The notes beneath the pieces were generated by a model that saw nothing but the letters and a program-made list of their open reading frames with translations, did not search any database and was not told where the DNA came from. This document shows, piece after piece, positions 1 through 30,684 of a DNA stretch of 36,893 bases. This stretch comes from a bacterium (GTDB lineage: Bacteria; SAR324; NAC60-12), in assembly GCA_965233585.1 (NCBI GenBank), contig CBDDTI010000401.1, positions 1-36,893 of the forward strand. Direction: 5' to 3'. The stretch's first letter is position 1, and the number at the start of each line of letters is the position of its first letter. The position numbers and the translations under genes are program-made.

Positions 1-1502
1 CAGTATATCCTTATGTTAATAAGACAGCCCAGTGGATTTGGCGGGAAAAAAAATTTCAAAATCGTAGCTCCCTATGAATTTTTGATCATCAACCCTTCAA
101 AGTCGCTGGTTTTGAGAGCAAAGAACAGCTACTTAGCTCGGAAATGAAAGAGTGTCAACGTGGCCAACGTGGCGATCATCAACCCCTTCAAAGTCGCTGG
201 TTTTGAGAGCAAAGAACGGCTACGTAGCCCTGAAATTAAAGAAGATGGCATACGGTTCAAGATGGATCCTCCAAGAAAATACAAAAACTACAACGTTTTT
301 ACGCTGATTCGGAAACTCAACACGGTCGCCGGGTCGCCTAAAAAAATGGACAAGAAAAAGACTACGTTTTTACGCTGATTTGGAAACTCAACACAGTTTT
401 AAGAGCTTTGTTAAGAGCTTTACAGCTTTAGATCGTTGAAAGTGAGGCCAACGTGAACGGGGTCAGGACCTGAGATGACAACTTCATTCAAAAAATCACT
501 ATGTACGGCTTTAGATCGTTGAAAGTGAGGCCAACGTGAACGTGAACGGGGTCGGTACCTGAGACGACAACTCTCTCTCTCTTCATTCAAATTTCACTAG
601 CGTTGGTCGCTAAAAAACGGAAACTACTACGTACAGCTTTAAGTCTATTGTTGAAAGTGAGGCCAAAGACTCGTGAACTGGGAAGTGAGCGTTGCTATTA
701 CACATGATTAGCAAACCAAGACAAGAACAACTCCCAGAAGAGACTGTTAGACTTCTTACCCTCTTTGATTTTTGATTTCCCACCTATATACATGAAGTGT
801 TTATTGTCTAAAAATATATTTGTACAAAGTTTTCTCTAAAACACGAGTTTATAACTTTATATATCAATTCACGTCGTAAATAGCCTTCATTTCCCCTGAG
901 AACAAAAAGTAAACGAAACGAAACTTCTTCAATTTCCAAGCTAGTAGGCGTTGCTTGCTCTCAAAAAAAAACCAGCTCTGAAGTGGTTGATCGCCACGTT
1001 GTGAGAGGAAATTGAACTCTCTGAAGAAAGGTAGTTCAGGCAGTAGTAGTCGCTTTTGGGGTTGTTGGCCTCGTAGGGGTCGATGACGAACAGTCCGGAT
1101 CTCCGGAAATGAGTAGCGTGGCCCTGGCCGTGGCCGTTCACTCAGCCGTGGCCGTAGTAGTTGTTTTGGGGTTGTTGGCTTCAGAAGAGTCGATGACGAA
1201 CAGTCCGAATTTCCGGACCCGAATTTTGAATTTTTGTGGCCATCCTCTCTTCCAAGTTGCTTGGCCATCTCCTCTCTGAAGTCGCGTGGCCGTCCTCTCT
1301 TCCAAGATAGAGAGGTAGTTGAACTCTCTGAAGAAAGGCTAGGTCACAGTAGTTGTCGTTTTTGGGGTTGCTGGCCTCAGAAGAGTCAACGATCTCCAGA
1401 AATGAGTAGCGACCTAGGACTTGTAAGATTGGAATTTTTTTCGCCTTCGAACTTTCAAAATTTTTTTGGATTTTTTTGGAGGATGCAGCACAGAGTATTA
1501 TT
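1..1502. repeat. Host composite interspersed repeat into which the Polinton left end is inserted
   Basis: ~700-970 is an inverted match to ~34745-35030. ~920-1502 is an inverted match to ~29013-29570. 85-255 contains monomers of the 99-bp repeat at 31342-31817. No credible protein. Confidence 0.75.
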
Positions 1503-2038
1503 GGATGACGGGAGCGTGATTTTAGATGTTTTCGGCCCGAATTCATCTAAAAAAATCTAAATGCGTTCTAAATTCATCTAAATTCATCTAAATGCGTTCT
1601 CGTTGCAAGCAAAACGTCAACTGATTCAATCTAAAAGCATCTAAATGCACACCGATTTCTGGTGCGTGCACCAAAAGTTTGGTGCCTGCATTGCTGTGTC
1701 TAATGCTGGCATGAAAAATTTGGTGCGTGCACGAAAAGTTTGGTGCCTGCATTGCTTCGTCTAATGCTGGCATGAAAAGTTTGGTGCGTGCATGAAAAGT
1801 TTGGTGCCTGCATTGCTTTGTCTAATGCTGGCATGAGAAGTTTGGTGCGTGCATGAAAAGTTTGGTGCCTGCATTGCTCTGTCTAATGCAGGCATGAAAA
1901 AGTTGGTGCACGCACTAAAAATTTCATGCATGCATCAAAATTTTACTTGTCTGCATTACTTTTTCTGGTGCCGGGATCTCAATTTTGACGCTGGCGTGAA
2001 ATTTTAGATCCAGGCACCAGAATGTCAGCGGTCCATAG
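1503..2038 (+). repeat. Left terminal inverted repeat (536 bp)
   Basis: GGATGAC...GGTCCATAG is the reverse complement of 22158-22875. Contains 10-bp ATTCATCTAA repeats and four 61-bp units (TCTAATGC at 1699, 1760, 1821, 1882). Confidence 0.93.
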
Positions 2039-3559: not shown

Positions 3560-5152
3560 TTATTTAGGGTTTTGTATGGCTAGATTCATCATGATTTTTT
3601 CATTTGTTTCAAAATTAATCAATTCTCCGTCAAGTCTTTTTAACTGAAAATGCAACAAATCCAGTCGACTTGTATTACACTTTATGTATTCCAAATTTTC
3701 AAAATGCGTCGTCACATAATTGTCTTGTTCCTCGGCTCTATTAATTGGTATAACTTTTAATACAGGGTAAAACTCGTCTCCAATTACCGAGTGATTGACG
3801 AAATTGGCATAGCAGATCATCACTCCCGGATATAGATAGTGCGGATCTAGACGTTCGTCACTTATAAATTGATTACTTTCATCCGCCAAAACAATGTCAT
3901 CATCTTGACTTATTCCTAGCAATAATCTTATTTCATGCGGCACTCTTATCCTTACTACCAAGGAGCGATTGAATTGATTGCCGACCCGTTTTACTTTAAA
4001 ACGGTCTTTATGCGCGGAAATTTGAATGAGACTTTGTAAATCTTTGCTCATACCATTATACATGGCCTCGATTAATTCATCCGTTGTTTTGATAAACCTC
4101 TTCTCAATGCAAAAGCAAAATCGCATTGTTTCAATCATTACCCTGATTTTCACAGGTGGAAATGTTTCTGTTGGGTCAGGATTTTGCATTGGCTGTTGCG
4201 ATATAAATTCTTTTTTCTCCGGTCCCATAACAATATATTCTTCTTTGATTCCCAAAATGTTTTTAAATTCGGGCGGTATCAGCACTTTTACCTCAGGTGA
4301 TTTAAATTCGGCATCGTACGTCGTCGGTCCGGTGTAAATTACTCGAAAAAACATATCGGCCGATTCTTTTGTTTTCTCCGTTTGCCCAAATTCAACAAAA
4401 TTACGTACTACGCTGTCTCTTCCGTCGTTTAAGCAATTTAATAAATAAGCAATTGTTTTCCGCTGATCAAGTTTGACCTCGATTTCTTGCTTGAACGGGT
4501 CTGTACTTACTTTAATTTTCTTATCAAAAACGCTTAACGGAACGCTGTTAACACGATTTGGAAAGGAGATGTCGGCTAAGGCTATTTTAGCTCCTTCGTT
4601 TAAATAAATGGGATGGCTCAAATGTACCTCGAAATTGTTGTTTTTCTGCGCGGGTTTTATGTTGTCGCCCATTTTTGAGTCGACGCGAATGTGCTTTGTC
4701 AAATATGTCATCGCTCGTTTTGTTTTTCGCAAATGAAGTAAAACTAGACTCGGCTGACCCGATTTTAGTTTTAGAAGTTTGTCGGATGCGTCTAAAAACT
4801 CAATGCCCACTGATTTTATTGAAGTGTTTTGAATAGGATAATATCGTATGTTGTTTAAAGTATGGTAGAAATATTTCCGTTTTTTGCTTGAAGGCAAGTC
4901 GGCCACGCATAAGATGTGAGAATTCTCGTTTGAGCTTGTAGACACAATGTTGGATTTAACCTGCACCACGTCAAAAACAAAATCTTGTTTCACGTTTAAA
5001 TGCAGACCAAAAGCTACAACCCCAACTTCCCAATCTCTTCTTTTGTTTAATTCTAAATTTTTCGGTAAAAAATTGTTAAAACGCGTTAGCGTGTTTACGT
5101 AACAATCAGTGCTTGCGTTTGAAATGCAATATATAAGATGTCCTCCTTTCAT
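3560..5152 (-). CDS. Minor capsid (penton-like) protein, apparently two fused units
   Basis: N-terminal SNxSxxxYxNTxxxFxxxLPxxLxL..WEVG motif and C-terminal YxNxVxxSxIGD..PVLKxIP..FENLEY..GELINF motif typical of Polinton pentons. Lies next to the integrase. Confidence 0.8.
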   Translation of the reverse strand: MKGGHLIYCISNASTDCYVNTLTRFNNFLPKNLELNKRRDWEVGVVAFGLHLNVKQDFVFDVVQVKSNIVSTSSNENSHILCVADLPSSKKRKYFYHTLNNIRYYPIQNTSIKSVGIEFLDASDKLLKLKSGQPSLVLLHLRKTKRAMTYLTKHIRVDSKMGDNIKPAQKNNNFEVHLSHPIYLNEGAKIALADISFPNRVNSVPLSVFDKKIKVSTDPFKQEIEVKLDQRKTIAYLLNCLNDGRDSVVRNFVEFGQTEKTKESADMFFRVIYTGPTTYDAEFKSPEVKVLIPPEFKNILGIKEEYIVMGPEKKEFISQQPMQNPDPTETFPPVKIRVMIETMRFCFCIEKRFIKTTDELIEAMYNGMSKDLQSLIQISAHKDRFKVKRVGNQFNRSLVVRIRVPHEIRLLLGISQDDDIVLADESNQFISDERLDPHYLYPGVMICYANFVNHSVIGDEFYPVLKVIPINRAEEQDNYVTTHFENLEYIKCNTSRLDLLHFQLKRLDGELINFETNEKIMMNLAIQNPK

Positions 5153-5157
5153 ACTTG

Positions 5158-6237
5158 TTACGCCCGATTAATAACGCTATCTTCCGCAATCCAGCTAAGG
5201 TTTTTATAGCCTTTCCACTTCACCAACACCAACTTCTGCCCGGTTCTTTTATCTTTCTTCCTTCTCACAATTTTTTCAATGTGAAATAATTTCGGCGGCT
5301 TGGCCAGAGTCAGCTCATTAGCATAAAAATTTCCCTCCACCGTCTCGTCACCGTCCAGAGTTTCCAGCTCGTATGTAGGTATGGGTAATCGCGTAAACAC
5401 CCGTTTGATCTTGTAAATTTCTTCAGTAAATTGCTTATTGTAACCTCTGTCAAATTGAGCTCTGTAGTTACTTATTCTGACCGTCTGGCCTTTCTTAAAT
5501 TTAGGCGGTCGCCTCTTTATTTTCGCATAAGCCTCTTCTTGTTTCATTCGGACTTTGGGAGCGTTTTTTGCTTTTTCCGCATCAGCTGGACTCATACCGA
5601 TCATTCTATGTACGCGCGAGTTATACGTCTTTACTAAAGATTGAAGCACGTGGATAAATCGATCCGTACCCCTAGATGTCATATATTTAAACATTAGACT
5701 TTTTAGAGATCTGTTAAATCTTTCCACAAACGGCGCGTGCACAAAGTTGTCGCTGTGTAAAAGAGTAATGCCTTTACGTCGACAGTAGTCTTTAAAAAAT
5801 TTATTTTTGATCTCTAACCCTCTATCAGCTAGAATTTTTCGAGGCGGCTGGCCAGCCTTATTGACAATGGTTTTGAATCCTTGTAAAAAAACCAAAGCTG
5901 TCTTGTTTTTTATGGGTTCAACAAAGGCATATCTCGAAAAAATGTCGATCGCTGTCAGCAAGTAACGATAATTGTCATTCGCGTTTGCCATTTTCCCAAT
6001 TTCAACCAAGTCTATTTGGAATTGATATCTTTTGTAATAAACATAGGTTGGGTTCCTAGGTTTTGGAGCCTTAGGTTGTCGGTGCAGAGTATAGGTGTCC
6101 GACGCCTGCAGCCATTTCTTTATTTTATTTATGGGTATGGTCCCGTTAAAATGATTAAAAACGCGGTTCGGCGATGAAAAAGCAAAAGGCGAGCCGGGCG
6201 AAGTGTAAGCTTTTAAAAATTCGCGTTTAGTAATCAT
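5158..6237 (-). CDS. int: RVE (DDE) integrase with C-terminal chromodomain
   Basis: YTLH, FQIDL, LTAIDIFSRY, ADRG and VERFNRSLK motifs; chromodomain FHIEKI..LVKWKGY..SWI. ATG 6237 is preferred over the upstream TTG at 6267. Confidence 0.95.
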   Translation of the reverse strand: MITKREFLKAYTSPGSPFAFSSPNRVFNHFNGTIPINKIKKWLQASDTYTLHRQPKAPKPRNPTYVYYKRYQFQIDLVEIGKMANANDNYRYLLTAIDIFSRYAFVEPIKNKTALVFLQGFKTIVNKAGQPPRKILADRGLEIKNKFFKDYCRRKGITLLHSDNFVHAPFVERFNRSLKSLMFKYMTSRGTDRFIHVLQSLVKTYNSRVHRMIGMSPADAEKAKNAPKVRMKQEEAYAKIKRRPPKFKKGQTVRISNYRAQFDRGYNKQFTEEIYKIKRVFTRLPIPTYELETLDGDETVEGNFYANELTLAKPPKLFHIEKIVRRKKDKRTGQKLVLVKWKGYKNLSWIAEDSVINRA

Positions 6238-6655
6238 CCTCGTCGTCGTCGTTGTCGTCCTCAACATAAAACAGCGGTTTTTGTTTTGTTTTTCTTCTCT
6301 TACCGCTTCCTACCGCATGCGTGCTATTTTTTCTCTTGACCGGTCTCTTGGACGCCTGTGCAGGCCTACTCGCCTTACCAGCCAGTAAGATGTTTCTAGT
6401 CGCGGATTTTAATCTCTTTTTCGCAGCGGCTCCAACTGCTTTGCCGTCCAAGGCTTCCAGTGCGGTGTCAATGGCCGCTCGTCCCGCCTCTTTTTTCAAA
6501 TATCGTCCCGCGGATCTGACACCCTCGCTTCTCGCAATTTTACCGATTGTCTTTGCGGCGCCCTTCGCCACCGGAACCAACGACCGGAAAAGACTGCTAA
6601 AAATTGAACCTAATCCCGCCCCAGCTTGCACAGACGGACCACGGTGGTATCGCAT
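6227..6655 (-). CDS. Small basic core-like protein (pVII-like) with acidic tail
   Basis: QAGAGLGSIFSSLFRSLVP matches the QxGxGLGxxFxxL motif of Polinton core proteins. K/R/A-rich. Confidence 0.75.
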   Translation of the reverse strand: MRYHRGPSVQAGAGLGSIFSSLFRSLVPVAKGAAKTIGKIARSEGVRSAGRYLKKEAGRAAIDTALEALDGKAVGAAAKKRLKSATRNILLAGKASRPAQASKRPVKRKNSTHAVGSGKRRKTKQKPLFYVEDDNDDDEDDY

Positions 6656-6661
6656 ACTTTA

Positions 6662-7381
6662 TCAATTTTCAATTTTTTTGACGCACCTGCTTAAGGCCAT
6701 CGGACTAACGCCTAATTGCTCGGCTAAACGCGATAAGCTTTTCGGCTTTTCCTGATCAACCCTACTCCGTTGTTCTCTTAAAAAGACGTGCGCGCATGCC
6801 GCGATTAGTGTTTTTGGCGAAAAAACAAACTTTTTTTCGTGTTGCTTTACTTTCTCTCTAATTTCCTTCAACTCCTTGTAGCTTAGATTTAAAGAGTGAA
6901 GAAAATATTCGCACATTAAATTTGGGCTGTAGAAAGAGTCGTCGTTTTTAAGATATTGCCACACTTTGTCCTGCTTGACGCCGGTTATGGCACATAAATC
7001 TTTCATCGGTCGCGGCACCCCCGACTCTATAAGCGCGGTGTAGATGCACATTACCGCTAAACTTTCTAAACAAACACCTCTTTTCCCTCTTTTCCCGCTA
7101 GCGTCCCATTTTTTGGCGATGACGCGTTTTAAATCCGCGCATTCGATATTGCACTTATAGCATACCCTTTGCATTGTCTCATCAGTAAAATTGTTTTTGT
7201 CGCAAGTCACATCCTCGCTCATTTTCTCCGTTTTAATCGATTCGAGCCGATAGTCATACGGGGCATATAGCCGATCATGCATCACGAGCCCGCAATCTGT
7301 ACATACTTCACACCCGTTTGAAAAATCATCCACAATATTGTAATGAGAACAAGTCCTGTTGAAATTATGAAAACGAGGCAT
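6662..7381 (-). CDS. TFIIB: TFIIB-like general transcription factor (239 aa)
   Basis: Zn ribbon CSH..VDD..G.EVCTDCGLV. Cyclin repeat 1 AVMCIYTALIESGVPRPMKDL; repeat 2 SPKTLIAAC..SLSRLAEQLGVS. Confidence 0.88.
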   Translation of the reverse strand: MPRFHNFNRTCSHYNIVDDFSNGCEVCTDCGLVMHDRLYAPYDYRLESIKTEKMSEDVTCDKNNFTDETMQRVCYKCNIECADLKRVIAKKWDASGKRGKRGVCLESLAVMCIYTALIESGVPRPMKDLCAITGVKQDKVWQYLKNDDSFYSPNLMCEYFLHSLNLSYKELKEIREKVKQHEKKFVFSPKTLIAACAHVFLREQRSRVDQEKPKSLSRLAEQLGVSPMALSRCVKKIEN

Positions 7382-7424
7382 GTTTATTTCTCCGCACGCG
7401 CTGCAAAACTGAAACGCGAATCAA

Positions 7425-7985
7425 CTATCGATCGCTTTTATATTGTTTCAAAAAATCTATAATAAAGTCCAAACTATGTTTGACCGCATCTTCGGACTTG
7501 GCCCCGATGATTACCATCTTGCCTGTGGAAAATATTAAAACCGTGTTGGCTTCAAAAGTCACAAACATGCCTGGGAAACGTTCGGGATTGAAGCGTACTT
7601 TTTTCACGTAGCTCTCCTTCCGAAGTTTATTAAAAACGTCCGGCAGCGGTATCTCAAAGCCCGCACGAAAGGAACAAGTTAAATTGTTTATTTCCCATGT
7701 TTGCACAAAGAAACGATTGCTGATAATGTCCGTCAGCAGACTTAACGATATTTTTATATCCGCTCGCGATGGCACTTTGGTAATATTGACATGATATGAT
7801 TTGTTGTTTCCGCGGGTCTTGAAAATGGTGTAGACGTATTGTTTCCTCACTACCGTAAAATTACTAAAAACTTTTTGTGACACATCTTTATTTAAGGATA
7901 ACGGCCCCTCATCCGTAAGAATAATTGTGCAGCTAAGCTTTATATTTGTCACAGTGACGTGCTCCGTGTTGTCTAGAAATGTCAT
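7425..7985 (-). CDS. TBP: Divergent TATA-binding-protein-like protein (186 aa)
   Basis: C-terminal repeat INNLTCSF..FNPERFPGM..TVLIFSTGKMVIIGAKSE is clearly TBP-like. The N-terminal repeat is degenerate (VTNIKLSC..YTIF..HVNIT). Size matches the TBP core. Confidence 0.9.
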   Translation of the reverse strand: MTFLDNTEHVTVTNIKLSCTIILTDEGPLSLNKDVSQKVFSNFTVVRKQYVYTIFKTRGNNKSYHVNITKVPSRADIKISLSLLTDIISNRFFVQTWEINNLTCSFRAGFEIPLPDVFNKLRKESYVKKVRFNPERFPGMFVTFEANTVLIFSTGKMVIIGAKSEDAVKHSLDFIIDFLKQYKSDR

Positions 7986-9319
7986 CGTTGATTAATGGCG
8001 GTGTCGGCGGTTTAAATGTGGATTTCAATGAATTGCAGGGTGATAGTTTGAATGCGCATGCGACCCCCCTCGAAGACACGGATTTAATATCAGGTCGTAC
8101 TGTGCTATATAGTAGCGTGACTCCCGTCGAAGATTTAGAAGATGTTACGTTTTCAATTCCTTCCGACCCCGAATGCGCTTTTGTTTTAAATCAGACGAGG
8201 CTAGAGGGTTACTTTGTGGTAAAGACCGACAGCGGCGAGGGTGTAACAGACACTGACACGCCAACAATTACTAACCATTATTGCGCCGCATTATTCTCGC
8301 AAATTGAAGTCCACCTTAACGGAACTCAAATATGTGATTTGAGTGCCCCTCTTTCTTATTCGTACAAACACCACATTGACTTTCTCCTGTCCTATAACAA
8401 TAATGTATTAACAAATGTGGGACGGTCCGAAGGCTTTTGCCGAACGCACCACGACAAATGCTTTGACAATATTACCACGACCGGTAAAATGTGCCAATGC
8501 ATCGCGGAGAATCGTGCGAAAATAATAAACGACAAAAAAGTTTATTTTAGCTCAACTTTGCCCGCAGATATTTTTTACACCGACAAATATTTACCTCCGA
8601 ATGTGGAAATCACTGTTGTATTACGCAGGTTCAACCCATGTTTCGGGCTGCTTCAAGATAATCCGAACAAAGTCTATCGCATTCGTTTAAAGGAATTAAA
8701 ACTTCGCATGAGAAAAGTGTTACCGTGCGAGCGTGTGCGAAACAGGCTAAACGCCGAACTGCTAAAAGGTCGACCATTTTTTCTGCCTTTTAAAGACACG
8801 CAGATGAAGCATTATCTGATCCCGTCTGGTTCCCTTAGTTTCTCTGCAAATCACATCAACAATAGCGAGATGTTGCCGCAACAAATTATTTTCTGCATGC
8901 TTCGAAGCGACCTTTTTGCTAAGGGACCGAGCGATCAATTTCCCTTTAAATTTAAACACGCCGATTTAGCATCCGTCATTTTAAAAAACAATGGAAGACC
9001 CCTCTTGCCTAGACCTATAGAATGCAAGATACTTACAGGCGATTATATGGAATTGTACGACCATTTTCAAAGCAACGTCGGCGGCAGAAATTGTATTTCA
9101 CCCCAAGCTTTTACAGAGGGTCAGATGTTTCTCGCGTTCGACCTGACTCCGGATAAATGCCTATCCTTTCACAATCACGTCGGAGTGCCCGGAAATTTAG
9201 AACTAGACTTGACTTTTAACACCCCCACCAGATCCCCCTTAACCCTGATTTCTTACGCTATTTATAATGCTGCCATTTCCATCGACAGCAACCTTCAGGT
9301 TACCAAAATAAAATATTAA
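7979..9319 (+). CDS. Major capsid protein paralog 1 (double jelly-roll)
   Basis: Polinton MCP motifs LFSQIEVHLNG, DIFYTDKYLPPNV, LRMRKV, LPQQIIF, PFKFKH, AFDLTPD, GNLELDLTF. Confidence 0.88.
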   Translation: MSSLINGGVGGLNVDFNELQGDSLNAHATPLEDTDLISGRTVLYSSVTPVEDLEDVTFSIPSDPECAFVLNQTRLEGYFVVKTDSGEGVTDTDTPTITNHYCAALFSQIEVHLNGTQICDLSAPLSYSYKHHIDFLLSYNNNVLTNVGRSEGFCRTHHDKCFDNITTTGKMCQCIAENRAKIINDKKVYFSSTLPADIFYTDKYLPPNVEITVVLRRFNPCFGLLQDNPNKVYRIRLKELKLRMRKVLPCERVRNRLNAELLKGRPFFLPFKDTQMKHYLIPSGSLSFSANHINNSEMLPQQIIFCMLRSDLFAKGPSDQFPFKFKHADLASVILKNNGRPLLPRPIECKILTGDYMELYDHFQSNVGGRNCISPQAFTEGQMFLAFDLTPDKCLSFHNHVGVPGNLELDLTFNTPTRSPLTLISYAIYNAAISIDSNLQVTKIKY

Positions 9320-9388
9320 AATTGCACACCGCCGACTCCCTCTTTTTAAGAAGAACAGAAAACTACAGACTAGCATGCATTTTCGACA

Positions 9389-10723
9389 ATGACTGAAAAG
9401 GGTGGCATCGGAGGTCTAGGGTTCGAGCAGGACGATTTGACAGAACAAGCTCTTGATCTGCACGCGCCGCTCGGGGTCGATATAAGCCTTGAAAAAGGCA
9501 ATGATGTGGTCTACAACAGCGTTTCCAGCGTTTCAAACACCGGACCGATCGAATTCATCATCCCGCGAGACGAAGAGTGTTCCATCATTCTGGATCAGAC
9601 TAGATTAATAGGGCATTTCGTTGTCAAGACAGCAAAGGATGAAAATGTCGGACCCGACGATCGAGTCTTTCTGGCCAATAATTTCGCGAGCAATCTATTT
9701 AGCGCGGTTGAAATCTACATTAACGGTACTCAAGTCTGCGACTTGAGCACGGCAAATTCCTACCCTTTCAAAAACTTTATCCAGACCGAGTTGTCGTTTG
9801 ATAGAGAGGCCAAACAGAGTCAGCTAAGAGCCGAAGGTTATTTTGAAGAAAAAGAAAACGATATTGGAGCTTGCGAGCCCGGTATAAATCAGCGTTTAAT
9901 ACACCGTCGAAATCTTATACTTCACGGCAAAAAAGTTTATTTCTGCTCTCGATTGGGGGCGGATATTATGTATACGGATAAGTATATGCCACCGAATGTC
10001 GACATCAAGATTAAGCTTATTAGAAACAGTCCGACATTCGGTATTCTTCACGCCGAAGATGACAAATCTTTTAAAATCGTTTTAAAGGATTTAAAGTTGA
10101 AAATGAGAAAAGTTTTGCCGGTCGAGCAGCAGAGAAAGCATTTTAGGATGAAAATGTCTCAACAGCCCTGCTATATACCCTTTAAGCTGAGTCAGTTGAA
10201 GGTTTTTGTGATTCCAGCCGGCGTCACATCGTACACCGTTACCAATATTGCCTCACAAATACTGCCCAAACAAGTTATTTTCACCCTAATTCACAACCAA
10301 GCCTTGACGCACGATAGCAAATTCAACCCGTTCGACTTTCAACACTTTGATCTTAATTATTTCAATCTTATTAAAAACGGACAATGCGTCTTCCCAAAAG
10401 CTTTTCAGCCGGATTTTGATGATGATAACTACATGGACCTGTACAGACACATGTACGACAGCACGGGTTTCGGCATTTCAAATAGTTCTTGCGACATTTC
10501 GCCCGCGGTTTTTAAGAGAGGAAGATGTTTTCTAACTGCCGATTTGACCCCCGATCGCTGCAACAGTTTTCACATTCACCCCGACGAAAAAGGCAAGTTG
10601 GACTTGGAATTAGGCTTTAAAACAGCCAAGCCTCACCCCATCTACCTGCTAGCCTACAGCATTTTTAATTCCGGAATTAAAATAGAGGAGAACGGCCAAG
10701 TTGTTAGGGCCGAAGAGCGATAA
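9389..10723 (+). CDS. Major capsid protein paralog 2 (double jelly-roll)
   Basis: GPIEFII, NNFASNLFSAVEIYING, YPFKNFIQTEL, NPFDFQHF, PDF, DLTPD, GKLDLELGF. Confidence 0.9.
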   Translation: MTEKGGIGGLGFEQDDLTEQALDLHAPLGVDISLEKGNDVVYNSVSSVSNTGPIEFIIPRDEECSIILDQTRLIGHFVVKTAKDENVGPDDRVFLANNFASNLFSAVEIYINGTQVCDLSTANSYPFKNFIQTELSFDREAKQSQLRAEGYFEEKENDIGACEPGINQRLIHRRNLILHGKKVYFCSRLGADIMYTDKYMPPNVDIKIKLIRNSPTFGILHAEDDKSFKIVLKDLKLKMRKVLPVEQQRKHFRMKMSQQPCYIPFKLSQLKVFVIPAGVTSYTVTNIASQILPKQVIFTLIHNQALTHDSKFNPFDFQHFDLNYFNLIKNGQCVFPKAFQPDFDDDNYMDLYRHMYDSTGFGISNSSCDISPAVFKRGRCFLTADLTPDRCNSFHIHPDEKGKLDLELGFKTAKPHPIYLLAYSIFNSGIKIEENGQVVRAEER

Positions 10724-11208
10724 TGGCCGGTTTGAGCAACGTATTTCTAGATCGGTTTTTATCCCCACTTTGCAAGAATTTCATCGGCACCTTTGCAGTC
10801 GACACGTTACCCTCAAACTTGTGGAACACTAGCTGTTGCGCCATCGTCAATCTTTCGGTTTCAAGCCATCCCGGCAGTCATTTCATCGCCTTTTTTATTA
10901 ATAAGCAAAACTATTTGTATTATTTCGACAGCTATGCACTACCCGTGCCCGCCTATAATCACCACCTCATCCATTTTTTGAAAAAATGGGAAAATTGCGG
11001 CAGAATAAGACATGTCCTGGACCGATCGATTCAAGCTTTCGATTCTTTGTTTTGCGGGTGGTATGCTGCCGCATTTTGCATGTTTGTCAATGCATACGCA
11101 AACGTGAAGCCGCGACACTTTTGCACTTTTTTTAATCCCAATAATTTACGCGAAAATGAAAAACGCGTCAAACATTTAGTTAATTGTTTGCAAGTCAAGC
11201 TTTATTAG
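10723..11208 (+). CDS. Adenain-like cysteine protease
   Basis: IVN..PGSHFIA (His), YFDS (Asp), IQ..SLFCGWY (Gln, Cys). TAATG overlap with MCP2; AATAAA at 11240-11245. Confidence 0.93.
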   Translation: MAGLSNVFLDRFLSPLCKNFIGTFAVDTLPSNLWNTSCCAIVNLSVSSHPGSHFIAFFINKQNYLYYFDSYALPVPAYNHHLIHFLKKWENCGRIRHVLDRSIQAFDSLFCGWYAAAFCMFVNAYANVKPRHFCTFFNPNNLRENEKRVKHLVNCLQVKLY

Positions 11209-15176: not shown

Positions 15177-18100
15177 ATGAACAGCGACTCTGTAAACGTG
15201 CCCGAGTATTTATTAAAGTGTCGAAGTGTTTTATGGAACAGAAAATACGATGAAAAGAATTTTCTATATTGTGTCATAGGACATCTTTGGCCGGAAACGG
15301 CAAACATCAGACGATGCGAAAAAATTCCAAAGGAGTATGAAAGTAAATTTAACTTGCAGGGTTTAACCTTTCCCCTGCAGTTTAGCCAGATTAGCAAGTT
15401 TGTTCGAATTAACAAGCACCTACCGTTACGTATAAGAGTTCTTTTTGAAGGTGAACATCAACTGAGTGTTTTAGACGTTTTCTCCAATAGATCTGGCGAG
15501 AAAAATAAGAACAAAAATACGCTAAATTTGCTAATGATTAAAAGTGATTGTCAAATTTCATCGGCCAATAAAGACAGCATTGACGTAAATGGCATTTCCA
15601 ACGTAAAAGACCTTGAGCATCAGCACCATTTTTTCACTATTGCTAATTTAAATGGCTTTCTGAACAACCGAAAATCTGCTATGACCAAAGGAAGACGGCA
15701 TAGAAGTCAGTTTTATTTTTGTGACAGCTGTTTAAGAGATTTTCGTTCGCGCAAGAAACAAAAATTACACGAAAAAATCTGTCAAATGGATAAACAAGCG
15801 GTGATTTATCCAGAAAAGGGCAGTGTCTTGAATTTCGATAAGCAAAGAAATGCTTTTAAAGCACCTGTAGTGGGATTTGCTGATTTTGAGTGTTTTATGG
15901 AAAAGTCAGAGCAAGAAGCAAAAACATGTAAAACATGCGGAAAAGCGTGGGTGACATGCGAATGTCAAGTGTCGGGATGCGCTGAGCTAAGTAAACATCG
16001 AGCTTGCGGCTATTCAATTTGTTTTGTCGATTCGGAAAACGAAGTATTTTATCAAGAAACGTACAGTGGAAAAGACGCTGTGGAAAATTTTCTATCAAAG
16101 CTGGATTATTTCGAAGAATTAGTGGAAGCGCGAAAGCAACGGTTCAAGAACACATCTCAAATTATAGCGAGCAAACATGATTGGGAAGAGTACCACGCCG
16201 CCACGCTATGTCATATTTGCAAAAAAGATTTTGATTCAGGCTCGCGATTATATAAAAAAGTGGTTGATCATGATCACGTCACCGGAAACATTGTTCAAGC
16301 GGCGCATTCTATTTGCAATCTGCAACGACAGGGCCCATTTAGAACACCTATATACTTTCACAACGCCAAGGGGTAAGTACAGACTTTTTTAATATTTATA
16401 ATCCTTGACTTGAGGGAAAGTCATTTTAAATTTTTTTAATTTTAAGATATGACATAAATCTACTAGTAGAAAAATTGGACAAAGAGGCTAATCTGATGGC
16501 GAGTAACCAAGAAAAGTTTAGGACAATCACTATTGGAAAATTTCAAATTAGGGATTCTCTAGAGCACGTGCCATCCAGTCTTGATGCGCTCATGACCGAT
16601 TTATGCAAGGATGAGACGTTTACCTTTCCGATTCTCAAACAATTCGAGCCTTACAAGAGGCTGTGGACGCGACAAAAGGCGAAAGGTTTAAAATTATTGA
16701 AAAGAAAAGGAGTATATCCGTATGAATACTTTTCATCATATGAGTCGATTAAAAACAGTCAATTTCCGCCAAAAGACGCTTTCTACTCGAGATTGAGCGA
16801 AGCCCACATCTCAACCGAAGATCATAAGCACGGCTATGAAGTGTTCAAGTTTTTTAATTGTAAAAATATGGACGACTACATGAAGTTATATTGCGGACTG
16901 GACGTGATTTTGCTGGCTGAGATTTTTGTAAAGTATCGAGAAATGGTGATGAAGCACTTTGAGTTGGATCCCATCTACTATTTAGGTATACCTGGCTTGT
17001 CATTTGACATCATGCTTAAAATGTTTCAAAATGAAGAAAGAAAAGACGAAGAAGAGATTAGTCCTGATTTAATGTCGAAACCACCGGGCTCATTGGACTT
17101 GTTTCACGATCCGGCAATGGAACAGTTTTTTACACGCGGCATTAGAGGAGGGCAGAGTTTTATAGCTACCAGACAAGCGACGGGTCAGGCCGATCCTAAA
17201 GCGAGCGGCGAGCATTTACTATATGTAGATGGTAATATTTTTTATTAAACGTCAAAGAAAAAAAGATTGATTAAAATTACGATACATTTTCAGCTAACAA
17301 TCTTTACGGCAGCATGGAAACACGCATGCTGCCGGTGGGTAATTTTAAGTGGGTGCCAAAAAAGGAGATAAAAACATGGACGGACAAGGACATTTTGAAT
17401 TTGCCTTCGCAAAGCAGGATTGGCTATGCTTTTGAAGTGGATTTGCACTATCCAAAAAAATATCATGAGGTAAATAATTGTTTCTGCTAAACACCAACTG
17501 CTAGAAAAATTTTTTTTATTTATTTTGCAGAGAGATGATCAATTTCCTTTGGCTCCTTACACTGACACAATAAACTTTGATGATCTGTCACCGTTTAACA
17601 AACAACTTTTGAAGAAGCACTGTCCGACTGATTACAAAAACAAACGTTACAGTTCGCGAAAGCTTCTTGCCACATTCTACCCGCGACGTAAATATGTCGT
17701 CTTGTTAGATAATCTAAAGTATTATTTGAGGCGAGGGCTGAAGCTTACAAAAATCAGACGAGCGGTCAAGTTTGAGCAAAAAGACTTTTTAAAAAACTTT
17801 ATCACAAAAATTACAAAATTAAGGTCGGAGGCAAAAACTGATTTTGAATTACGTCTCTTCAAGTTGTTTGCCAATTCCACATTTGGCAAATTTATAGGTA
17901 AAATAAAGTAATGGCTCCCTTTTTTCACAATAAAATGTTTAATTTTTTTCAGAGAACGCGCGAAACTACATCGAAATCGTATTGTGCCACAATGAAAAGA
18001 AGCTGAGAAAGACTTGCATGGGTCAGCATGTTTCGAATTTGAAAGTCATAAACGAAAACCTTGTGGCTGTCATGAAAAAACCGGCCGTTATTGAAATGAA

Positions 18101-18740
18101 GAAACCGTTGGCGGTGGGGTTTGCGATTTTGGAACTATCCAAACTCTACATGTATCGATCGTACGACAAATTTAGACGTTACTTTGGAACGGAGAATCTA
18201 AGGTTGTGCTTTTCGGACACAGACTCGTTTCTGTTTCAAGTAAAATGTCAAAATTTAGTTAAAAAGTTAAAAAGAATGGAACACATGTTCGACTTCTCAA
18301 AATACGATAAAGATCACGAGTTGTTTGACGATAGCAGAGCCAATCATTTGTTTTACTTCAAAGACGAGCTAAAAGGAAAGGCCGCAATTACTGAATTTAT
18401 CGGCTTAAGGCCAAAATGTTACAGCATGACGGTCAAGGATTTGAAAACCCGAGGAGCCAGCGTAAAGAAAATTTGTAAGGGCCTTAAAAAAACTAGTATT
18501 AAAAATCACTTGACCTTTGAGGATTATAAAAAATGTTTAAACGAATCAACATTGGTATATAAGCCTCTTGTTAATATTAAATCAAAGAATCACAGAATGT
18601 CAACAACCTACCAACGGAAAATTGCTCTATCTGCCATGGACACCAAACGTTATGTGCTTTCTTGTGGAAAGTGCACTTTGGCCTTAGGAAGTTGTCATGT
18701 AAAAAAATGTTATAAACATGAATGTAAGGAAATCAAATAA
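15177..18740 (+). CDS. polB: Protein-primed family B DNA polymerase, 5 exons (15177-16372, 16447-17231, 17294-17469, 17531-17897, 17953-18740; 1103 aa)
   Basis: Splicing four GT-AG introns restores HNAKG|YD, YVD|ANNLYG, YHE|RDDQFPLAP and KLFANSTFGKFI|EN. Also ADFE (ExoI), RKGVYPYEY, YCGLDV, SDTDS and an endonuclease VII-like CHIC..DHDHVTG..HSICNL insertion. Confidence 0.95.
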
Positions 18741-18802: not shown

Positions 18803-19489
18803 ATGGACGGATTTGATTTGCGCTTTAAGCTTCCATCTAACTTACTCGCGGTAGGTCCCACTTCTTGCGGAAAAACGTCATGGCTAAAAAAACTGGTTGA
18901 AGATAGGGCCGTAATGTGCTCGCCCGTTCCGGAATGTATGATTCTATTTTACAAAGAATTTCAACCGACCTATGCTGATATGGAGCGGGGGATGAACGAT
19001 GACGCGCGTGAAAAGAGGTTTTGCAAATTTTCATCCATGCCAGAATCGGTTGAAGAGATGAAAGATATACTGGAAACGTTCCCTAGAGCTCTTCCGAAAA
19101 TTGTGGTATTTGACGATTTTCTTGATGAAGTAGGATCGGTGCTAAAGCACTTTTTCACGGTTTTAACGCATCATTATAATTGTTTGACAGTTTTTTTGTG
19201 TCAGAACATGTTTAGCGCCAAAAGCGAACTCAGAATGCTCAGCATCAACTCGCAGTACATGATTTTATTCAACAATCCCAGAGACCGTAGCGCCGTCTCG
19301 CACCTGGCTAAACAGGTGTATCCGGGTAACGTGCATCGGCTAAACGATGCATATGCGGCAGCAACCGGTGAAAGACCTTATGGCTATTTACTGCTGGATT
19401 TTCATCAGCAGCAAAATAATTTGGTTCGATTAAGAAGTCATATTTTTCCGGACGAACAGCCTACAAGGGCGTACAACGTACGCACGTAA
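18803..19489 (+). CDS. Genome-packaging ATPase (A32/FtsK-like)
   Basis: Walker A VGPTSCGKT, Walker B IVVFDD, HH..LCQN, FNNPRD, PYGYLLLD, RLRSHIFP. First ATG at 18803. Confidence 0.93.
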   Translation: MDGFDLRFKLPSNLLAVGPTSCGKTSWLKKLVEDRAVMCSPVPECMILFYKEFQPTYADMERGMNDDAREKRFCKFSSMPESVEEMKDILETFPRALPKIVVFDDFLDEVGSVLKHFFTVLTHHYNCLTVFLCQNMFSAKSELRMLSINSQYMILFNNPRDRSAVSHLAKQVYPGNVHRLNDAYAAATGERPYGYLLLDFHQQQNNLVRLRSHIFPDEQPTRAYNVRT

Positions 19490-19519: not shown

Positions 19520-19873
19520 ATGACGAAATCACTAGAAAAAGCAGTTTCTCTTTTAAACGCGGTAAAACATTTAAAAGACCGTGACTGTTCCAATTTCATT
19601 GGATGTTTAAACGAGGAAGGCATCTATACTCTGTGTCGAATAATACACTACGTTTTGAACGGAGAGCTTACTTTTAGTAAGCGCGTTCGAGCAAGGTTAA
19701 GATCGAAAGTCGGGTGTCATCTGCCTGACTTTAAAAAACTGTCAAATTACCCGCGCAATAGTCGAGATATTTGCAAAAAGAAGCGAATACTGCAAAGAGG
19801 AGGCATAATCGGGGTTCTGACGGCTATTGCTAGCGCTGTAATACCTCTAATCACTCAACTTATTACAAAATGA
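19520..19873 (+). CDS. Conserved small Polinton protein with C-terminal QxGG and amphipathic helix
   Basis: KKKRILQRGGIIGVLTAIASAVIPLI matches the small gene usually found next to the ATPase. Confidence 0.75.
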   Translation: MTKSLEKAVSLLNAVKHLKDRDCSNFIGCLNEEGIYTLCRIIHYVLNGELTFSKRVRARLRSKVGCHLPDFKKLSNYPRNSRDICKKKRILQRGGIIGVLTAIASAVIPLITQLITK

Positions 19874-21384: not shown

Positions 21385-22240
21385 GAAAAACAAGATAAAA
21401 AGATAAAAATAAAATTTTCATATTTTTGCAATTTCCTTAACTATTTAGTAACAGCATTCCGTTGAAGTTTATAGCCAAAAAAGAAAAGAAAAACCCAAGT
21501 TATTGAGCACGTTTCTTCGTCTATGGACCGCTGACATTCTGGTGCCTGGATCTAAAATTTCACGCCAGCGTCAAAATTGAGATCCCGGCACCAGAAAAAG
21601 TAAATGAAATACTAAAACATGGGAAGCTTTTTAAATTACGAAAAAACCCGTTTTACAAGAAGCCTTGTGAAAATTACGATGAAAATGAACCACTTTCAAA
21701 ATTAAGACGCCGTGTAAAAAATAAAAAAATAAATGCAAAACCGTCAAAGAGAAAGTTAAAAGAGTCGACTTTTGATGAAAACGAGCCACTTTCTAAATTA
21801 AGACATCAAGGTGTAAAAACGAAGAAAGAAAAGAAAGAGTTAAAAAAGTTGACTGATGATGAAATACAGCTTTTTAAATTACGAAAAAACCCATTTTACA
21901 AGAAGCCTTATAAAAATTACGATGAAAATGAACCACTTTCAAAATTAAGACGCAATAGTAAAAAAAAAAACCCGTTTTACAAGAAGCCATTTCCTAAATT
22001 GATTGTTAGAAAGTTTTAAGAAAAACAAGATAAAAAGATAAAAATAAAATTTTCATATTTTTGCAATTTCCTTAACTATTTAGTAACAGCATTCCGTTGA
22101 AGTTTATAGCCAAAAAAGAAAAGAAAAACTCCCAAGTTATTGAGCACGTTTCTCCGTCTATGGACCGCTGACATTCTGGTGCCTGGATCTAAAATTTCAT
22201 GCCAGCGTCAAAATTGAGATCCCGGCACCAGAAAAAGTAA
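20966..22240 (+). repeat. ~637-bp tandem duplication (20966-21603 and 21604-22240)
   Basis: The ORF 3' end, its UTR and the first ~82 bp of the right TIR are repeated with scattered differences. Confidence 0.9.
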
Positions 22241-22875
22241 TGCAGACAAGTAAAATTTTGATGCATGCATGAAATTTTTAGTGCGTGCACCAACTTTTTC
22301 ATGCCTGCATTAGACAGAGCAATGCAGGCACCAAACTTTTCATGCACGCACCAAACTTTTCATGCCAGCATTAGACGGAGCAATGCAGGCACCAGATTTT
22401 TCATGCACGCACCAAACTTTTCATGCCAGCATTAGACGGAGCAATGCAGGCACCAAACTTTTCATGCACGCACCAAACTTTTCATGCCAGCATTAGACAA
22501 AGCAATGCAGGCACCAAACTTTTGGTGCACGCACCAAATTTCTCATGCCAGCATTAGACACAGCAATGCACGCACCAAACTTTTCATGCACGCACCAAAC
22601 TTTTCATGCCGGCATTAGACGGAGCAATGCAGGCACCAAACTTTTGGTGCACGCACCAAACTTTTCATGCTGGCATTAGACACGGCAATGCACGCACCAA
22701 ACTTTTGGTGCAGGCACCAGAAATCGGTTGACATTTAGATGCATTTAGATTGAATCAGTTGACGTTTTGCTTGCAACGAGAACGCATCTAGATGAATTTA
22801 GATGAATTTAGATGAATTTAGATGAATTTAGATGAATTCGGGCCGAAAACATCTAAAAACAGGCTGCTGTCATCC
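22158..22875 (-). repeat. Right terminal inverted repeat (718 bp)
   Basis: CTATGGACC...GTCATCC. Seven 61-bp units (GCATTAGA at 22307-22673, period 61) and five 10-bp GATGAATTTA-type units. Confidence 0.93.
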
Positions 22876-22885
22876 GTTTTTACTA

Positions 22886-28324: not shown

Positions 28325-28554
28325 CTTTTCACTAACAGATAAATGGTGGCACCAACATCAAAATTCATTGAAGCGAAAAAAATATTTTTGTCTCAGTCGA
28401 CGCGAGCGCCATCTACCAAGCTATAATATCACTAGATCTTTCAATTTGGGCCTCACCCCATGGATAAGGTCAAGTTAATTCTTAACGCGTTACTGTGGCA
28501 TGCGGCTGGGCTGACAAGAAACCTCTGTTAATTAATAAAAAAATTTATATATTA

Positions 28555-30151: not shown

Positions 30152-30684
30152 TATTCTGAATTAATTTTACTCTATTTTACTGCAGTATTGAATTATTTGG
30201 TATTTTATTATTATAATATTGACTTAATTTTATAAAAAAAACATTTCTCATAATAAATATTAGTAATTTTGAACTAATTATATTACTTGATTGCAAAAGT
30301 TTGTTCACAAAAGAACAAAAACAGGGACTATTTTAGTAGTGGATGATGCATTAAGACCACTAGCACCACCTGTTGTTTACACAGGGACAGGGTACAAGCA
30401 CTGATGTCTTTGGGTGCAAGGGGAAATTCTGAAATGGATGTAATTTTTCATGATTTACCCCAACAGGTGGCACTAGCGGTCTTAATACATCAGCCACTAC
30501 TAAAATAGTCACTGTTTTTGTTCTTTTGTGAGCAAACTTTTGCAATCAAGTATTATAATTAGTTCAAAAATATTAATATTTATTATGAGAAATATTTTTT
30601 TATAAAATTAAGTATATATTATAATAATAAAATACCAAATAATTCAATACTGCAGTAAAATGGTGTAGAATTAATTTCAGAATA
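30152..30684. mobile_element. Fold-back MITE with ~225-bp inverted arms
   Basis: 30152-30376 is an inverted match to 30461-30684. Confidence 0.85.

What the first reader, a model, noticed from the sequence alone, without database searches (positions are those of the whole stretch)
6662..7985. A Polinton/Maverick carrying its own TBP + TFIIB pair: a minimal viral pre-initiation module
Seen: adjacent, co-oriented, intronless, intact TBP-like and TFIIB-like genes between the integrase/core block and the capsid block, inside the TIRs. Both are strongly diverged. TBP has a degenerate first repeat and FNPERFPG where host TBP has YEPELFPG in the TFIIB-contacting stirrup. TFIIB keeps the Zn ribbon and two cyclin folds but lacks a recognisable EWRTF B-reader. 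Known: TBP/TFIIB homologs occur in Nucleocytoviricota, and beta/gamma-herpesviruses use a TBP mimic for late genes, but neither is in the standard Polinton gene set. Inference: lacking an RNA polymerase, this 21-kb element may redirect host Pol II to element-specific, probably late/capsid, promoters through a co-evolved TBP-TFIIB pair. I cannot confirm that this is undescribed.
Basis: partly seen in the sequence, partly recalled or inferred. Interest (0 to 1): 0.95.

Follow-up and report, generated by a model that had tools for sequence, protein, structure and literature searches.

The report
Polinton with its own TBP–TFIIB pair
A 21-kb virus-like transposon (Polinton/Maverick) carries conserved neighbouring copies of two basic transcription start factors, TBP and TFIIB, but no RNA polymerase, so it probably steers the host polymerase to its own genes.

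Summary
Two intact, co-oriented ORFs on the minus strand lie inside a TIR-bounded element that carries a protein-primed PolB and an rve integrase.

- **TBP-like gene, 7425-7985, 186 aa.** It matches Pfam TBP (E 8e-17, second repeat only). AlphaFold2 (pLDDT 91.8) gives a full two-lobed saddle, and every listed PDB match down to rank 44 is a TBP.
- **TFIIB-like gene, 6662-7381, 239 aa.** It keeps an invariant C-x-H…C-x2-C zinc ribbon and two five-helix cyclin folds. The family profile hits human TFIIB at E 3e-9. About 45 residues of the B-reader/B-linker are missing.

Both genes have many intact relatives (38-99% identity).

An independent 22.9-kb Polinton-like contig (L001) keeps the same gene order, TBP-TFIIB-basic protein-integrase-ORF530, at only 23-35% protein identity. 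So the pair is an old, selected module, not a recent capture.

The TBP belongs to a large family, separate from cellular TBPs. The window and L001 copies span 113 of its 141 sampled members.

Residues that mediate the human TBP-TFIIB contact are changed on both sides, which suggests a private interface.

The mechanism, recruiting host Pol II to element promoters, is inferred and untested. The only printed mention I found is a "TBP" gene label in one figure legend.

The parts
7425..7985 (-). TBP-like gene, 186 aa, single exon
   Evidence: Pfam TBP E 8.1e-17 on residues 98-182. The family profile hits PDB TBPs at E 8e-24 to 3e-14. AF2 pLDDT 91.8, two alpha/beta lobes. All listed Foldseek PDB rows down to rank 44 are TBP, TM 0.55-0.70 over about 190 columns.
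6662..7381 (-). TFIIB-like gene, 239 aa, single exon. Zinc ribbon at residues 11-33, short disordered linker at about 36-61, two cyclin folds at 68-238.
   Evidence: Pfam Zn_Ribbon_TF E 1.2e-4 and TFIIB repeat E 0.034, both below cut-off. The family profile hits human TFIIB at E 3.2e-9, on ribbon and first cyclin. AF2 pLDDT 72.5, ten helices. The best Foldseek matches are TFIIB/TFB chains and Pol II/III initiation complexes, E from 9e-7.
7435..7442 (-). TATAAAAG box about 55-60 nt upstream of the TFIIB-like ATG, lying in the last codons (Q-Y-K-S) of the TBP-like ORF
   Evidence: Pattern scan and upstream listing. Function not tested.
6227..6655 (-). Basic 142-aa ORF directly downstream of the pair; part of the conserved gene block
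   Evidence: 32% identical to the ORF in the same position in L001.
5158..6267 (-). rve integrase with a C-terminal chromodomain
   Evidence: Pfam rve 40.3 bits (cut-off 32.6); Chromo 21.8 bits, below cut-off. 35% identical to the L001 integrase.
3560..5152 (-). 530-aa ORF of unknown family; last member of the conserved block
   Evidence: 26% identical to the 538-aa L001 ORF in the same position. No Pfam or PDB match.
7979..10723 (+). Two paralogous 446/444-aa ORFs (capsid candidates, unverified), divergent from the TBP-like gene
   Evidence: 39% identical to each other. 23% and 28% identical to the single 460-aa L001 ORF. No family match.
15177..18740 (+). Protein-primed family B DNA polymerase, split into several frames
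   Evidence: Pfam DNA_pol_B_2 30.4 bits, cut-off 25.8. Pieces in different frames. 28-36% identical to the L001 PolB.
1494..2038 (.). Left terminal inverted repeat, with 4.5 copies of a 61-nt tandem unit
22158..22884 (.). Right terminal inverted repeat, with 7.1 copies of the 61-nt unit

Best explanation
The two genes are real, selected homologs of TBP and TFIIB. They form a linked module inherited within a lineage of Polinton/Maverick (adintovirus-like) elements. The element has no RNA polymerase of its own.

The most likely mechanism has four steps:
1. The TBP-like saddle binds and bends AT-rich (TATA-like) boxes in element promoters.
2. The TFIIB-like cyclin core clamps onto its C-terminal stirrup and the flanking DNA.
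3. The conserved zinc ribbon docks host RNA polymerase II.
4. This nucleates initiation on element genes without the host's TFIID/TFIIB.

The contact residues differ from the host pair on both sides, so the two proteins probably prefer each other (a private interface).

Shown: homology, folds, linkage, deep conservation and the residue changes.
Inferred: mutual binding, DNA binding, Pol II recruitment and which promoters are served.
For: Homology:
- TBP: Pfam E 8e-17; AF2 saddle at pLDDT 91.8; Foldseek returns TBPs only down to rank 44.
- TFIIB: the family profile hits human TFIIB at E 3.2e-9, on both the ribbon and the first cyclin. AF2 gives two five-helix folds. The best Foldseek hits are TFIIB/TFB. 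The L001 homolog passes the Pfam TFIIB-repeat cut-off on its second repeat (27.2 against 23.6 bits).

Selection:
- 34 TBP-like hits and 28 TFIIB-like hits.
- The 22 and 20 full-length sequences I aligned go down to 34% and 39% identity. They keep 18 and 41 invariant columns, including all four zinc ligands and four phenylalanines (F43, F55, F137, F152).

Linkage:
- Eight TBP-like/TFIIB-like cluster pairs report the same longest-contig length: 38135, 13686, 11102, 9991, 9421, 5462, 3532 and 1794 nt. I infer that each pair shares a contig.
- One protein, P0030, is a TBP-N/TFIIB-C chimera.
- L001 keeps the order TBP, TFIIB, basic ORF, integrase, ORF530 at 28, 23, 32, 35 and 26% identity.

No polymerase: none of the 22 ORFs of 100 aa or more scanned shows an RNA polymerase domain.

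Private interface:
- Human TBP E284/E286 and TFIIB R169/K188 mediate the contact (passages in PMC7221094 and PMC6004067).
- The matching element residues are N133/E135 (with R136 for L287) in TBP, and invariant I118 and Q137 in TFIIB (alignments).

Promoters: TATA-like boxes lie 50-90 nt upstream of several element ATGs, including the TFIIB-like gene itself.
Against: - No direct evidence of binding, DNA recognition or expression.
- The B-reader and B-linker, which cellular TFIIB uses for start-site selection and DNA opening (recalled knowledge), are largely absent. A productive Pol II complex is therefore not assured.
- The promoters look like ordinary TATA promoters. No shared element-specific motif was found in the window or L001. 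This weakens the idea of element-specific redirection.
- The first TBP repeat lacks helix H1. It could not be aligned to cellular TBP by profile comparison, so its DNA contacts are uncertain.
- The TFIIB model has only moderate confidence (pLDDT 72.5), and its ribbon is below 55.
Confidence: 0.55

Rival explanations
1. The two proteins work separately with host partners: viral TBP with host TFIIB, and viral TFIIB with host TBP. They would simply raise or retune general initiation capacity, for example in cells where host TBP is scarce, rather than forming a private pair.
For: Element promoters carry canonical-looking TATA boxes. E135, at the human E286 position, is retained. The first-cyclin segment around V-P-R-P aligns well with human TFIIB.
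Against: The genes stay adjacent and co-oriented across deep divergence. Both sides of the known salt-bridge contact are uncharged: N133, I118 and Q137.
Confidence: 0.2
2. The pair is a decoy or shut-off device. A TFIIB without reader and linker, plus a TBP that occupies TATA boxes, forms dead-end complexes. These would depress host Pol II transcription or evade host repressors during element reactivation.
For: The ribbon is kept, so the polymerase could be sequestered.
Against: An integrated, vertically inherited multicopy element gains little from harming its host. The element would still need some route to transcribe its own genes. No evidence either way from these tools.
Confidence: 0.13
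3. The proteins act as DNA-architecture factors for replication or integration, not transcription. They would bend the repeat-rich termini for protein-primed replication, with the TFIIB-like protein acting like ORC6.
For: The ORC6 second cyclin-like domain gives a weak hit in the L001 protein (E 0.006, below cut-off). The TIRs carry 61-nt tandem repeats that could be binding arrays.
Against: The invariant TFIIB-type zinc ribbon is a polymerase-docking element (recalled knowledge). The best sequence and fold matches are TFIIB itself, not ORC6.
Confidence: 0.08
4. The genes are passenger copies of host genes, captured by chance and decaying.
For: Both are highly diverged from cellular homologs: 17-24% identity to solved TBPs and 13-19% to TFIIBs.
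Against: Dozens of intact ORFs exist at 38-99% identity with invariant functional residues. Gene order is conserved in L001. The TBP family is separate from 13 of 13 cellular TBPs in the tree.
Confidence: 0.03

Closest known systems
TBP-like and TFIIB-like factors of giant viruses (Nucleocytoviricota), e.g. the poxvirus VITF-3 heterodimer (PMC12917281, abstract read); ASFV B263R-type TBP homologs appear among the fold matches
   Same: A virus encodes its own atypical TBP/TFIIB pair for promoter recognition. The best viral fold matches of the TBP model are giant-virus TBP-like proteins (E 9e-12 to 1e-3, TM 0.35-0.71).
   Different: Those viruses bring their own multisubunit RNA polymerase, and the factors serve it. 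This 21-kb element has none. Sequence identity to the viral matches is 21% or less, and most of them are longer, 190-500 aa and more.
Late-gene TBP mimic of beta- and gamma-herpesviruses (recalled knowledge; not tested here)
   Same: A nuclear DNA virus without a polymerase uses its own TBP-like protein to bring host Pol II to its promoters.
   Different: The herpesvirus protein is a remote structural mimic with no TFIIB homolog beside it. Here both proteins are recognisable by sequence, and the TBP matches Pfam TBP above cut-off.
Cellular TBP and TFIIB, and their paralogs
   Same: Same folds and the same zinc ligands. Phenylalanines are kept at the positions that flank the stirrup and precede the S-G-K strand.
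   Different: The first TBP repeat is not detectable by sequence and lacks helix H1. Contact residues E284, L287, R169 and K188 are replaced. The family is separate from 13 of 13 cellular TBPs (support 0.88).
[quoted passage not shown] 2021, PMC8502044, Figure 5 legend; section 3.4 read)
   Same: A TBP homolog annotated in a Polinton-related midsize DNA virus.
   Different: It is only a figure label. There is no TFIIB homolog, no analysis and no discussion in the text. The figure itself is not held, so I cannot tell which virus carries it or whether it is this family.

Membership tests
TBP (Pfam PF00352) | Sequence match above the curated cut-off | tested here: met
   61.3 bits against 22.9, on the second repeat only. 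L001 homolog: 44.1 bits.
TBP (Pfam PF00352) | Two tandem alpha/beta repeats forming one saddle | tested here: met
   AF2 pLDDT 91.8. Foldseek aligns about 190 columns to whole TBP cores, TM 0.55-0.70. The first repeat lacks helix H1.
TBP (Pfam PF00352) | Two phenylalanine pairs that kink the DNA (recalled feature) | tested here: inconclusive
   F137 and F152 align to the canonical positions in the second repeat. F43 and F55 are invariant in the first repeat, but I placed them by eye only.
TBP (Pfam PF00352) | Binds TATA DNA | not testable with these tools
   Needs EMSA or SELEX.
TFIIB | N-terminal zinc ribbon with Cys/His ligands | tested here: met
   C11, H13, C27 and C30 are invariant in 20 of 20 sequences. 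The ribbon aligns to human TFIIB residues 22-50. The Pfam match is below cut-off (22 against 29 bits).
TFIIB | B-reader and B-linker between ribbon and core | tested here: not met
   17 profile positions against 62 human residues. The region is variable and has low confidence. It is also short in L001.
TFIIB | Two cyclin-fold repeats | tested here: met
   Ten helices. The best Foldseek matches are TFIIB/TFB cores. The Pfam TFIIB repeat passes the cut-off only in the L001 homolog (27.2 against 23.6 bits); the window protein scores 14.6 bits.
TFIIB | Basic residues that contact the acidic TBP stirrup (human R169, K188) | tested here: not met
   They align to I118 (invariant) and Q137. Their role is taken from a passage in PMC6004067.
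Polinton/Maverick | Terminal inverted repeats | tested here: met
Polinton/Maverick | Protein-primed PolB and rve integrase | tested here: met
   DNA_pol_B_2 30.4 bits against 25.8. rve 40.3 bits against 32.6.
Polinton/Maverick | Adenain-like protease and packaging ATPase | tested here: inconclusive
   The window protease candidate (10723-11208) has no Pfam hit. Its L001 homolog hits Peptidase_C5 below cut-off (18.4 against 21.3 bits). The ATPase candidate has only weak hits.
Polinton/Maverick | Jelly-roll major and minor capsid proteins | tested here: inconclusive
   No sequence match for 7979-10723 or 3560-5152.
Polinton/Maverick | 6-bp target-site duplication | tested here: inconclusive
   The flanks share ACAG but no clean 6-mer.

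The most novel reading that the evidence does not exclude
A whole major lineage of Polintons/adintovirus-like viruses carries an orthogonal two-protein initiation module. It consists of a TBP with a re-specified first lobe and a reader-less TFIIB with a rewired mutual interface. The module captures host Pol II without TFIID and host TFIIB. The large family of 165-200-aa asymmetric TBP-like proteins in sequence databases is the unrecognised footprint of this module.
Probability: 0.35. Interest if true: 0.85.

Novelty: new variant of a known kind. Interest (0 to 1): 0.7.

Why it matters
- **Polinton gene expression.** Polintons are among the most widespread large DNA elements of eukaryotes. How they express their genes from within host chromatin is unknown. 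A self-encoded TBP-TFIIB pair would be the smallest known virus-borne pre-initiation kit that relies on the host polymerase.
- **Evolutionary link.** It would connect the transcription factors of giant viruses with those of their proposed small Polinton-like relatives.
- **A natural experiment.** The pair is a natural altered-specificity TBP-TFIIB combination, and a TFIIB that works, or fails, without a B-reader. Both are directly testable with two small recombinant proteins.
- **Annotation.** It would also give an annotation for hundreds of unnamed TBP-like protein clusters.

Tried and rejected
Steps that could not be run or gave nothing:
- Complex prediction of the pair was not available. 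No verdict on binding.
- The cluster-member look-up for names and accessions was switched off.
With the close TBP alignment, 77 pattern matches were found and none was confirmed. With the TFIIB alignment, two loci came back: L001, which was useful, and L002, an archaeal TFB ribbon of no relevance.
- tblastn of both proteins against 50,697 phage records gave no match.
- The promoter-motif hunt (upstream listings, a TATA scan and GC-block listings in the window and L001) showed ordinary TATA-like boxes and no shared special motif.
- Profile-profile comparison with cellular TBPs aligned only the second repeat. Residue mapping in the first repeat stays uncertain.
- The capsid identity of 7979-10723 and 3560-5152 was not resolved.
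- The target-site duplication was not resolved.
- One paper search with loose settings returned 7,390 papers. It was useful only for the VITF-3 paper.
- Two papers listed for Polinton + TATA matched only in their reference lists.

Not checked:
- Eukaryotic genome assemblies, and the closed viral and metagenome contig collections.
- Supplements of papers.
- Fused or split forms of either protein (longer or shorter length classes).
- dN/dS, because no DNA of close relatives was available.
- The host species.

Rejected:
- Passenger or decaying genes. See the rival explanations.
- A Pol III (Brf-like) role. The protein ends right after the second cyclin fold, with no C-terminal extension.
Full report
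**The element.** The window holds a roughly 21.4-kb element bounded by inverted repeats. The outermost arms are 1494-1562 and 22816-22884. The longest arm pair is 379 nt at 97% identity. The arms contain 4.5 and 7.1 copies of a 61-nt tandem unit. Inside lie:
- an rve integrase with a chromodomain (5158-6267; rve 40.3 bits against a cut-off of 32.6);
- a protein-primed family B polymerase, split over several frames (15177-18740; DNA_pol_B_2 30.4 bits against 25.8);
- a weak ATPase candidate (18803-19489);
- a protease-like ORF (10723-11208);
- two paralogous 445-aa ORFs (7979-10723, 39% identical to each other).

None of the 22 ORFs of 100 aa or more that I scanned has an RNA polymerase domain. 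PolB, integrase and TIRs support the Polinton/Maverick call. The capsid, protease and ATPase hallmarks could not be confirmed by sequence. The 6-bp target duplication was not resolved either.

The upstream one (7425-7985, 186 aa) is TBP-like:
- It matches Pfam TBP at E 8.1e-17, but only over residues 98-182, the second repeat.
- A profile of 22 family members hits 35 distinct PDB TBP sequences at E 8e-24 to 3e-14. The only other hit is at E 0.46.
- AlphaFold2 on that alignment gives pLDDT 91.8 and pTM 0.81. The model has two alpha/beta lobes, and the first lacks the short helix H1.
- In Foldseek against the PDB, every listed row from rank 1 to 44 is a TBP chain or a TBP fusion. E runs from 7e-10 to 1e-6, TM from 0.55 to 0.70, about 190 aligned columns, 17-24% identity.
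- The stirrup reads F-N-P-E-R-F-P-G (residues 132-139) and is nearly invariant in the family.

The downstream one (6662-7381, 239 aa) is TFIIB-like:
- On its own it falls below the Pfam cut-offs: Zn_Ribbon_TF E 1.2e-4 and TFIIB repeat E 0.034.
- A profile of 20 family members hits human TFIIB at E 3.2e-9 in two stretches. The ribbon aligns to residues 22-50 and the first cyclin repeat to 113-196.
- The model (pLDDT 72.5) shows a small beta ribbon, a disordered stretch at 36-61 and ten helices forming two five-helix bundles.
- The best Foldseek matches are TFIIB or TFB chains, followed by Pol III initiation complexes and Brf2. Ordinary cyclins appear only from rank 42. The TM-score is only about 0.3, which I attribute to a different angle between the two domains.
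- The zinc ligands C11, H13, C27 and C30 are invariant.
- Between ribbon and core there are 17 profile positions where human TFIIB has 62 residues. This stretch is the most variable part of the alignment.

**Relatives.** Word-seeded searches of 5.8 billion proteins gave 34 TBP-like hits among 71 candidates and 28 TFIIB-like hits among 194. None carries a name.
- I aligned the window protein with 21 of the 34 and with 19 of the 28, leaving out truncated entries and cellular TBPs. Identity to the window runs from 98% to 34% and from 99% to 39%. There are 18 and 41 invariant columns.
- Intact ORFs at such divergence argue for purifying selection. dN/dS could not be computed because I had no DNA of the relatives.
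- Eight TBP-like/TFIIB-like cluster pairs report the same longest-contig length, including contigs of only 1794 and 3532 nt. I take this as co-location, but that is an inference.
- P0030 is a chimera of a TBP-like N-terminus and a TFIIB-like C-terminus. A deletion across two adjacent genes in this order would produce it.

**An independent deep relative.** A scan of prokaryotic genome contigs with the TFIIB-like alignment returned L001. It is part of a 22,906-nt contig filed under a Leptospiraceae metagenome bin.
- Its genes show that it is a Polinton-like element, not bacterial DNA: a split PolB, one capsid-candidate ORF, a protease-like ORF and an rve+chromo integrase.
- It carries a 189-aa TBP-like ORF (Pfam TBP 44.1 bits) followed by a 252-aa TFIIB-like ORF. 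The second cyclin repeat of the latter passes the Pfam TFIIB cut-off (27.2 against 23.6 bits).
- The gene order is the same as in the window: TBP, TFIIB, basic ORF, integrase, 538-aa ORF. Identities are 28, 23, 32, 35 and 26%.
- The pair is therefore an old part of this Polinton lineage, kept in place while every protein diverged to about 25-35% identity.

**A large family.** An exhaustive profile search of 1.84 billion cluster representatives gave 3743 hits at E up to 1e-3 and 978 at E up to 1e-10.
- Of the 150 best listed, 148 were new. Nine of these are cellular-type TBPs. The others match the whole profile in one stretch, first repeat included, and most are 165-200 aa long. 116 of the 148 carry the first-repeat H-x-N-x-T signature.
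- I built a FastTree of 154 sequences on 175 columns: the window protein, L001, 9 close relatives, 130 representatives and 13 cellular TBPs. Nine representatives were dropped for length, and three multi-repeat or cellular-like ones were left out.
- The tree separates the family from all 13 cellular TBPs (support 0.88). The last common node of the window and L001 proteins spans 113 of the 141 family tips (support 0.89).
- The L001 protein is closer to family representatives (37%, 35%, 35%) than to the window protein (28%).
- Two Polinton-anchored members thus span most of the family. This suggests, but does not prove, that much of the family is Polinton-borne.
- Family members sit on contigs of at most 52 kb where a length is given.
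- The protein-atlas look-alikes are TBP clusters labelled mostly viral. One TFIIB-repeat cluster has its two phylum-assigned members in Preplasmiviricota. These are leads only.
- Among predicted viral structures, the named matches are giant-virus TBP-like proteins at 21% identity or less, plus one herpesvirus ORF at rank 35. No named row belongs to a Polinton, adintovirus or virophage, though many rows have no name.

**Mechanism.** The retained features point to a working promoter-recognition pair:
- a complete saddle;
- invariant phenylalanines where cellular TBP has its DNA-kinking residues. This is firm for the second repeat and by eye for the first;
- a TFIIB core with a conserved C-terminal helix-turn-helix, which gives sub-threshold HTH hits at 208-239;
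- an invariant ribbon, the part of TFIIB that docks on the polymerase (recalled knowledge).

The element has no polymerase, so host Pol II is the likely client.

The contact between the two proteins seems rewired.
- In the human pair, TBP E284 and E286 form the acidic patch that binds TFIIB (passage in PMC7221094). TFIIB R169E, and more strongly R169E/K188E, abolish binding (passage in PMC6004067, citing Tansey and Herr 1997).
- In the element, E284 is N133, E286 is kept as E135 and L287 is R136. R169 aligns with invariant I118 and K188 with Q137.
- Loss of charge on both sides fits a private interface, but this was not tested because the complex predictor was unavailable.

Three points count against a simple "redirection to special promoters".
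- Several element genes have ordinary TATA-like boxes 50-90 nt upstream of the ATG. One is a TATAAAAG box for the TFIIB-like gene, embedded in the last codons of the TBP-like gene.
- I found no motif shared by the window and L001.
- The missing reader/linker leaves open whether the complex is productive, needs host TFIIB as well, or is inhibitory.

**Literature.** I searched the full-text library for seven term pairs:
- Polinton with "TATA-binding protein" (5 papers);
- Polinton with TBP (6);
- Polinton with TFIIB (18);
- Polinton with TATA (31);
- Maverick with TFIIB (3);
- Maverick with "TATA-binding" (2);
- a looser adintovirus query.

From the listings, and from the passages I read, none describes a TBP-TFIIB pair in a Polinton.
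- The TFIIB papers concern giant viruses. This rests on the listings, plus passages of one preprint.
- Starrett et al. [quoted passage not shown] TFIIB does not occur in the text.
- The figure and the supplements are not held, so which virus carries the label is unknown.
- One paper mentions sporadic TBP genes in putative mirusvirus-derived elements, not in Polintons (PMC10675990, passage read).
- Subscription journals and supplements are outside these searches.

**Verdict.** The pair is real, conserved, linked and old, and it belongs to a large unannotated family. Virus-encoded TBP/TFIIB factors are known in giant viruses. A TBP mimic that recruits host Pol II is known in herpesviruses (recalled knowledge). 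This is therefore a new variant of a known kind rather than a new category. The function is a well-motivated inference, at about 0.55.

Noticed in passing
window 7979-9319 and 9389-10723 (+): Two tandem paralogous 446/444-aa ORFs, 39% identical to each other. The related element L001 has a single 460-aa copy. They are presumed virion proteins, but no family or PDB match was found.
   Followed up: partly
window 15177-18740 (+); L001 456-4564 (-): The protein-primed PolB is split into pieces in different frames. One break lies just after a Y/F-V/I-D-G motif, at the same place in the window (about 17248/17275) and in L001. This suggests short introns at conserved sites rather than decay. Splice sites were judged by eye only.
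   Followed up: partly
window 16200-16330 (PolB N-terminal part, residues 342-388 of ORF 15177-16376): An Endonuclease VII/HNH-like zinc motif sits inside the PolB N-terminal region (Pfam E 5.9e-4, below cut-off). A similar C/H-rich stretch occurs in the L001 PolB.
   Followed up: no
window 7435-7442 (-): The TATA box of the TFIIB-like gene lies within the Q-Y-K-S codons at the end of the TBP-like ORF. A Y-K pair at this tail position occurs in 13 of the 22 aligned family members. This could reflect dual use of the sequence. The DNA of the relatives was not available.
   Followed up: no
window 7979-7985: The start codons of the TBP-like gene (minus strand, 7985) and the first 446-aa ORF (plus strand, 7979) overlap by 7 nt. 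Each gene's promoter must therefore lie inside the other's coding region, or be distant and spliced.
   Followed up: no
window 1660-1935 and 22287-22719: The TIRs contain arrays of a 61-nt tandem repeat, 4.5 and 7.1 copies at 90-91% matches.
   Followed up: no
window 19870-21384 and 21507-22019: The 504-aa ORF ends in a lysine-rich 120-nt tandem repeat. Its C-terminal part recurs nearly unchanged in an open frame at 21507-22019, next to the right TIR.
   Followed up: no
L001 (contig JANYCR010000279.1, 22,906 nt): A contig filed in a Leptospiraceae metagenome bin encodes a eukaryote-type Polinton gene set: split PolB, rve+chromo integrase, TBP-like and TFIIB-like genes. It is most likely mis-binned.
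   Followed up: partly
window 789-1112, 28551-29604, 30159-30676, 32406-32666, 34818-35207, 36414-36803: The flanking host DNA is full of short inverted and dispersed repeats. Examples are hairpin-like pairs of 141 nt and 118 nt with 85-nt and 25-nt spacers, suggestive of small non-autonomous transposons.
   Followed up: no
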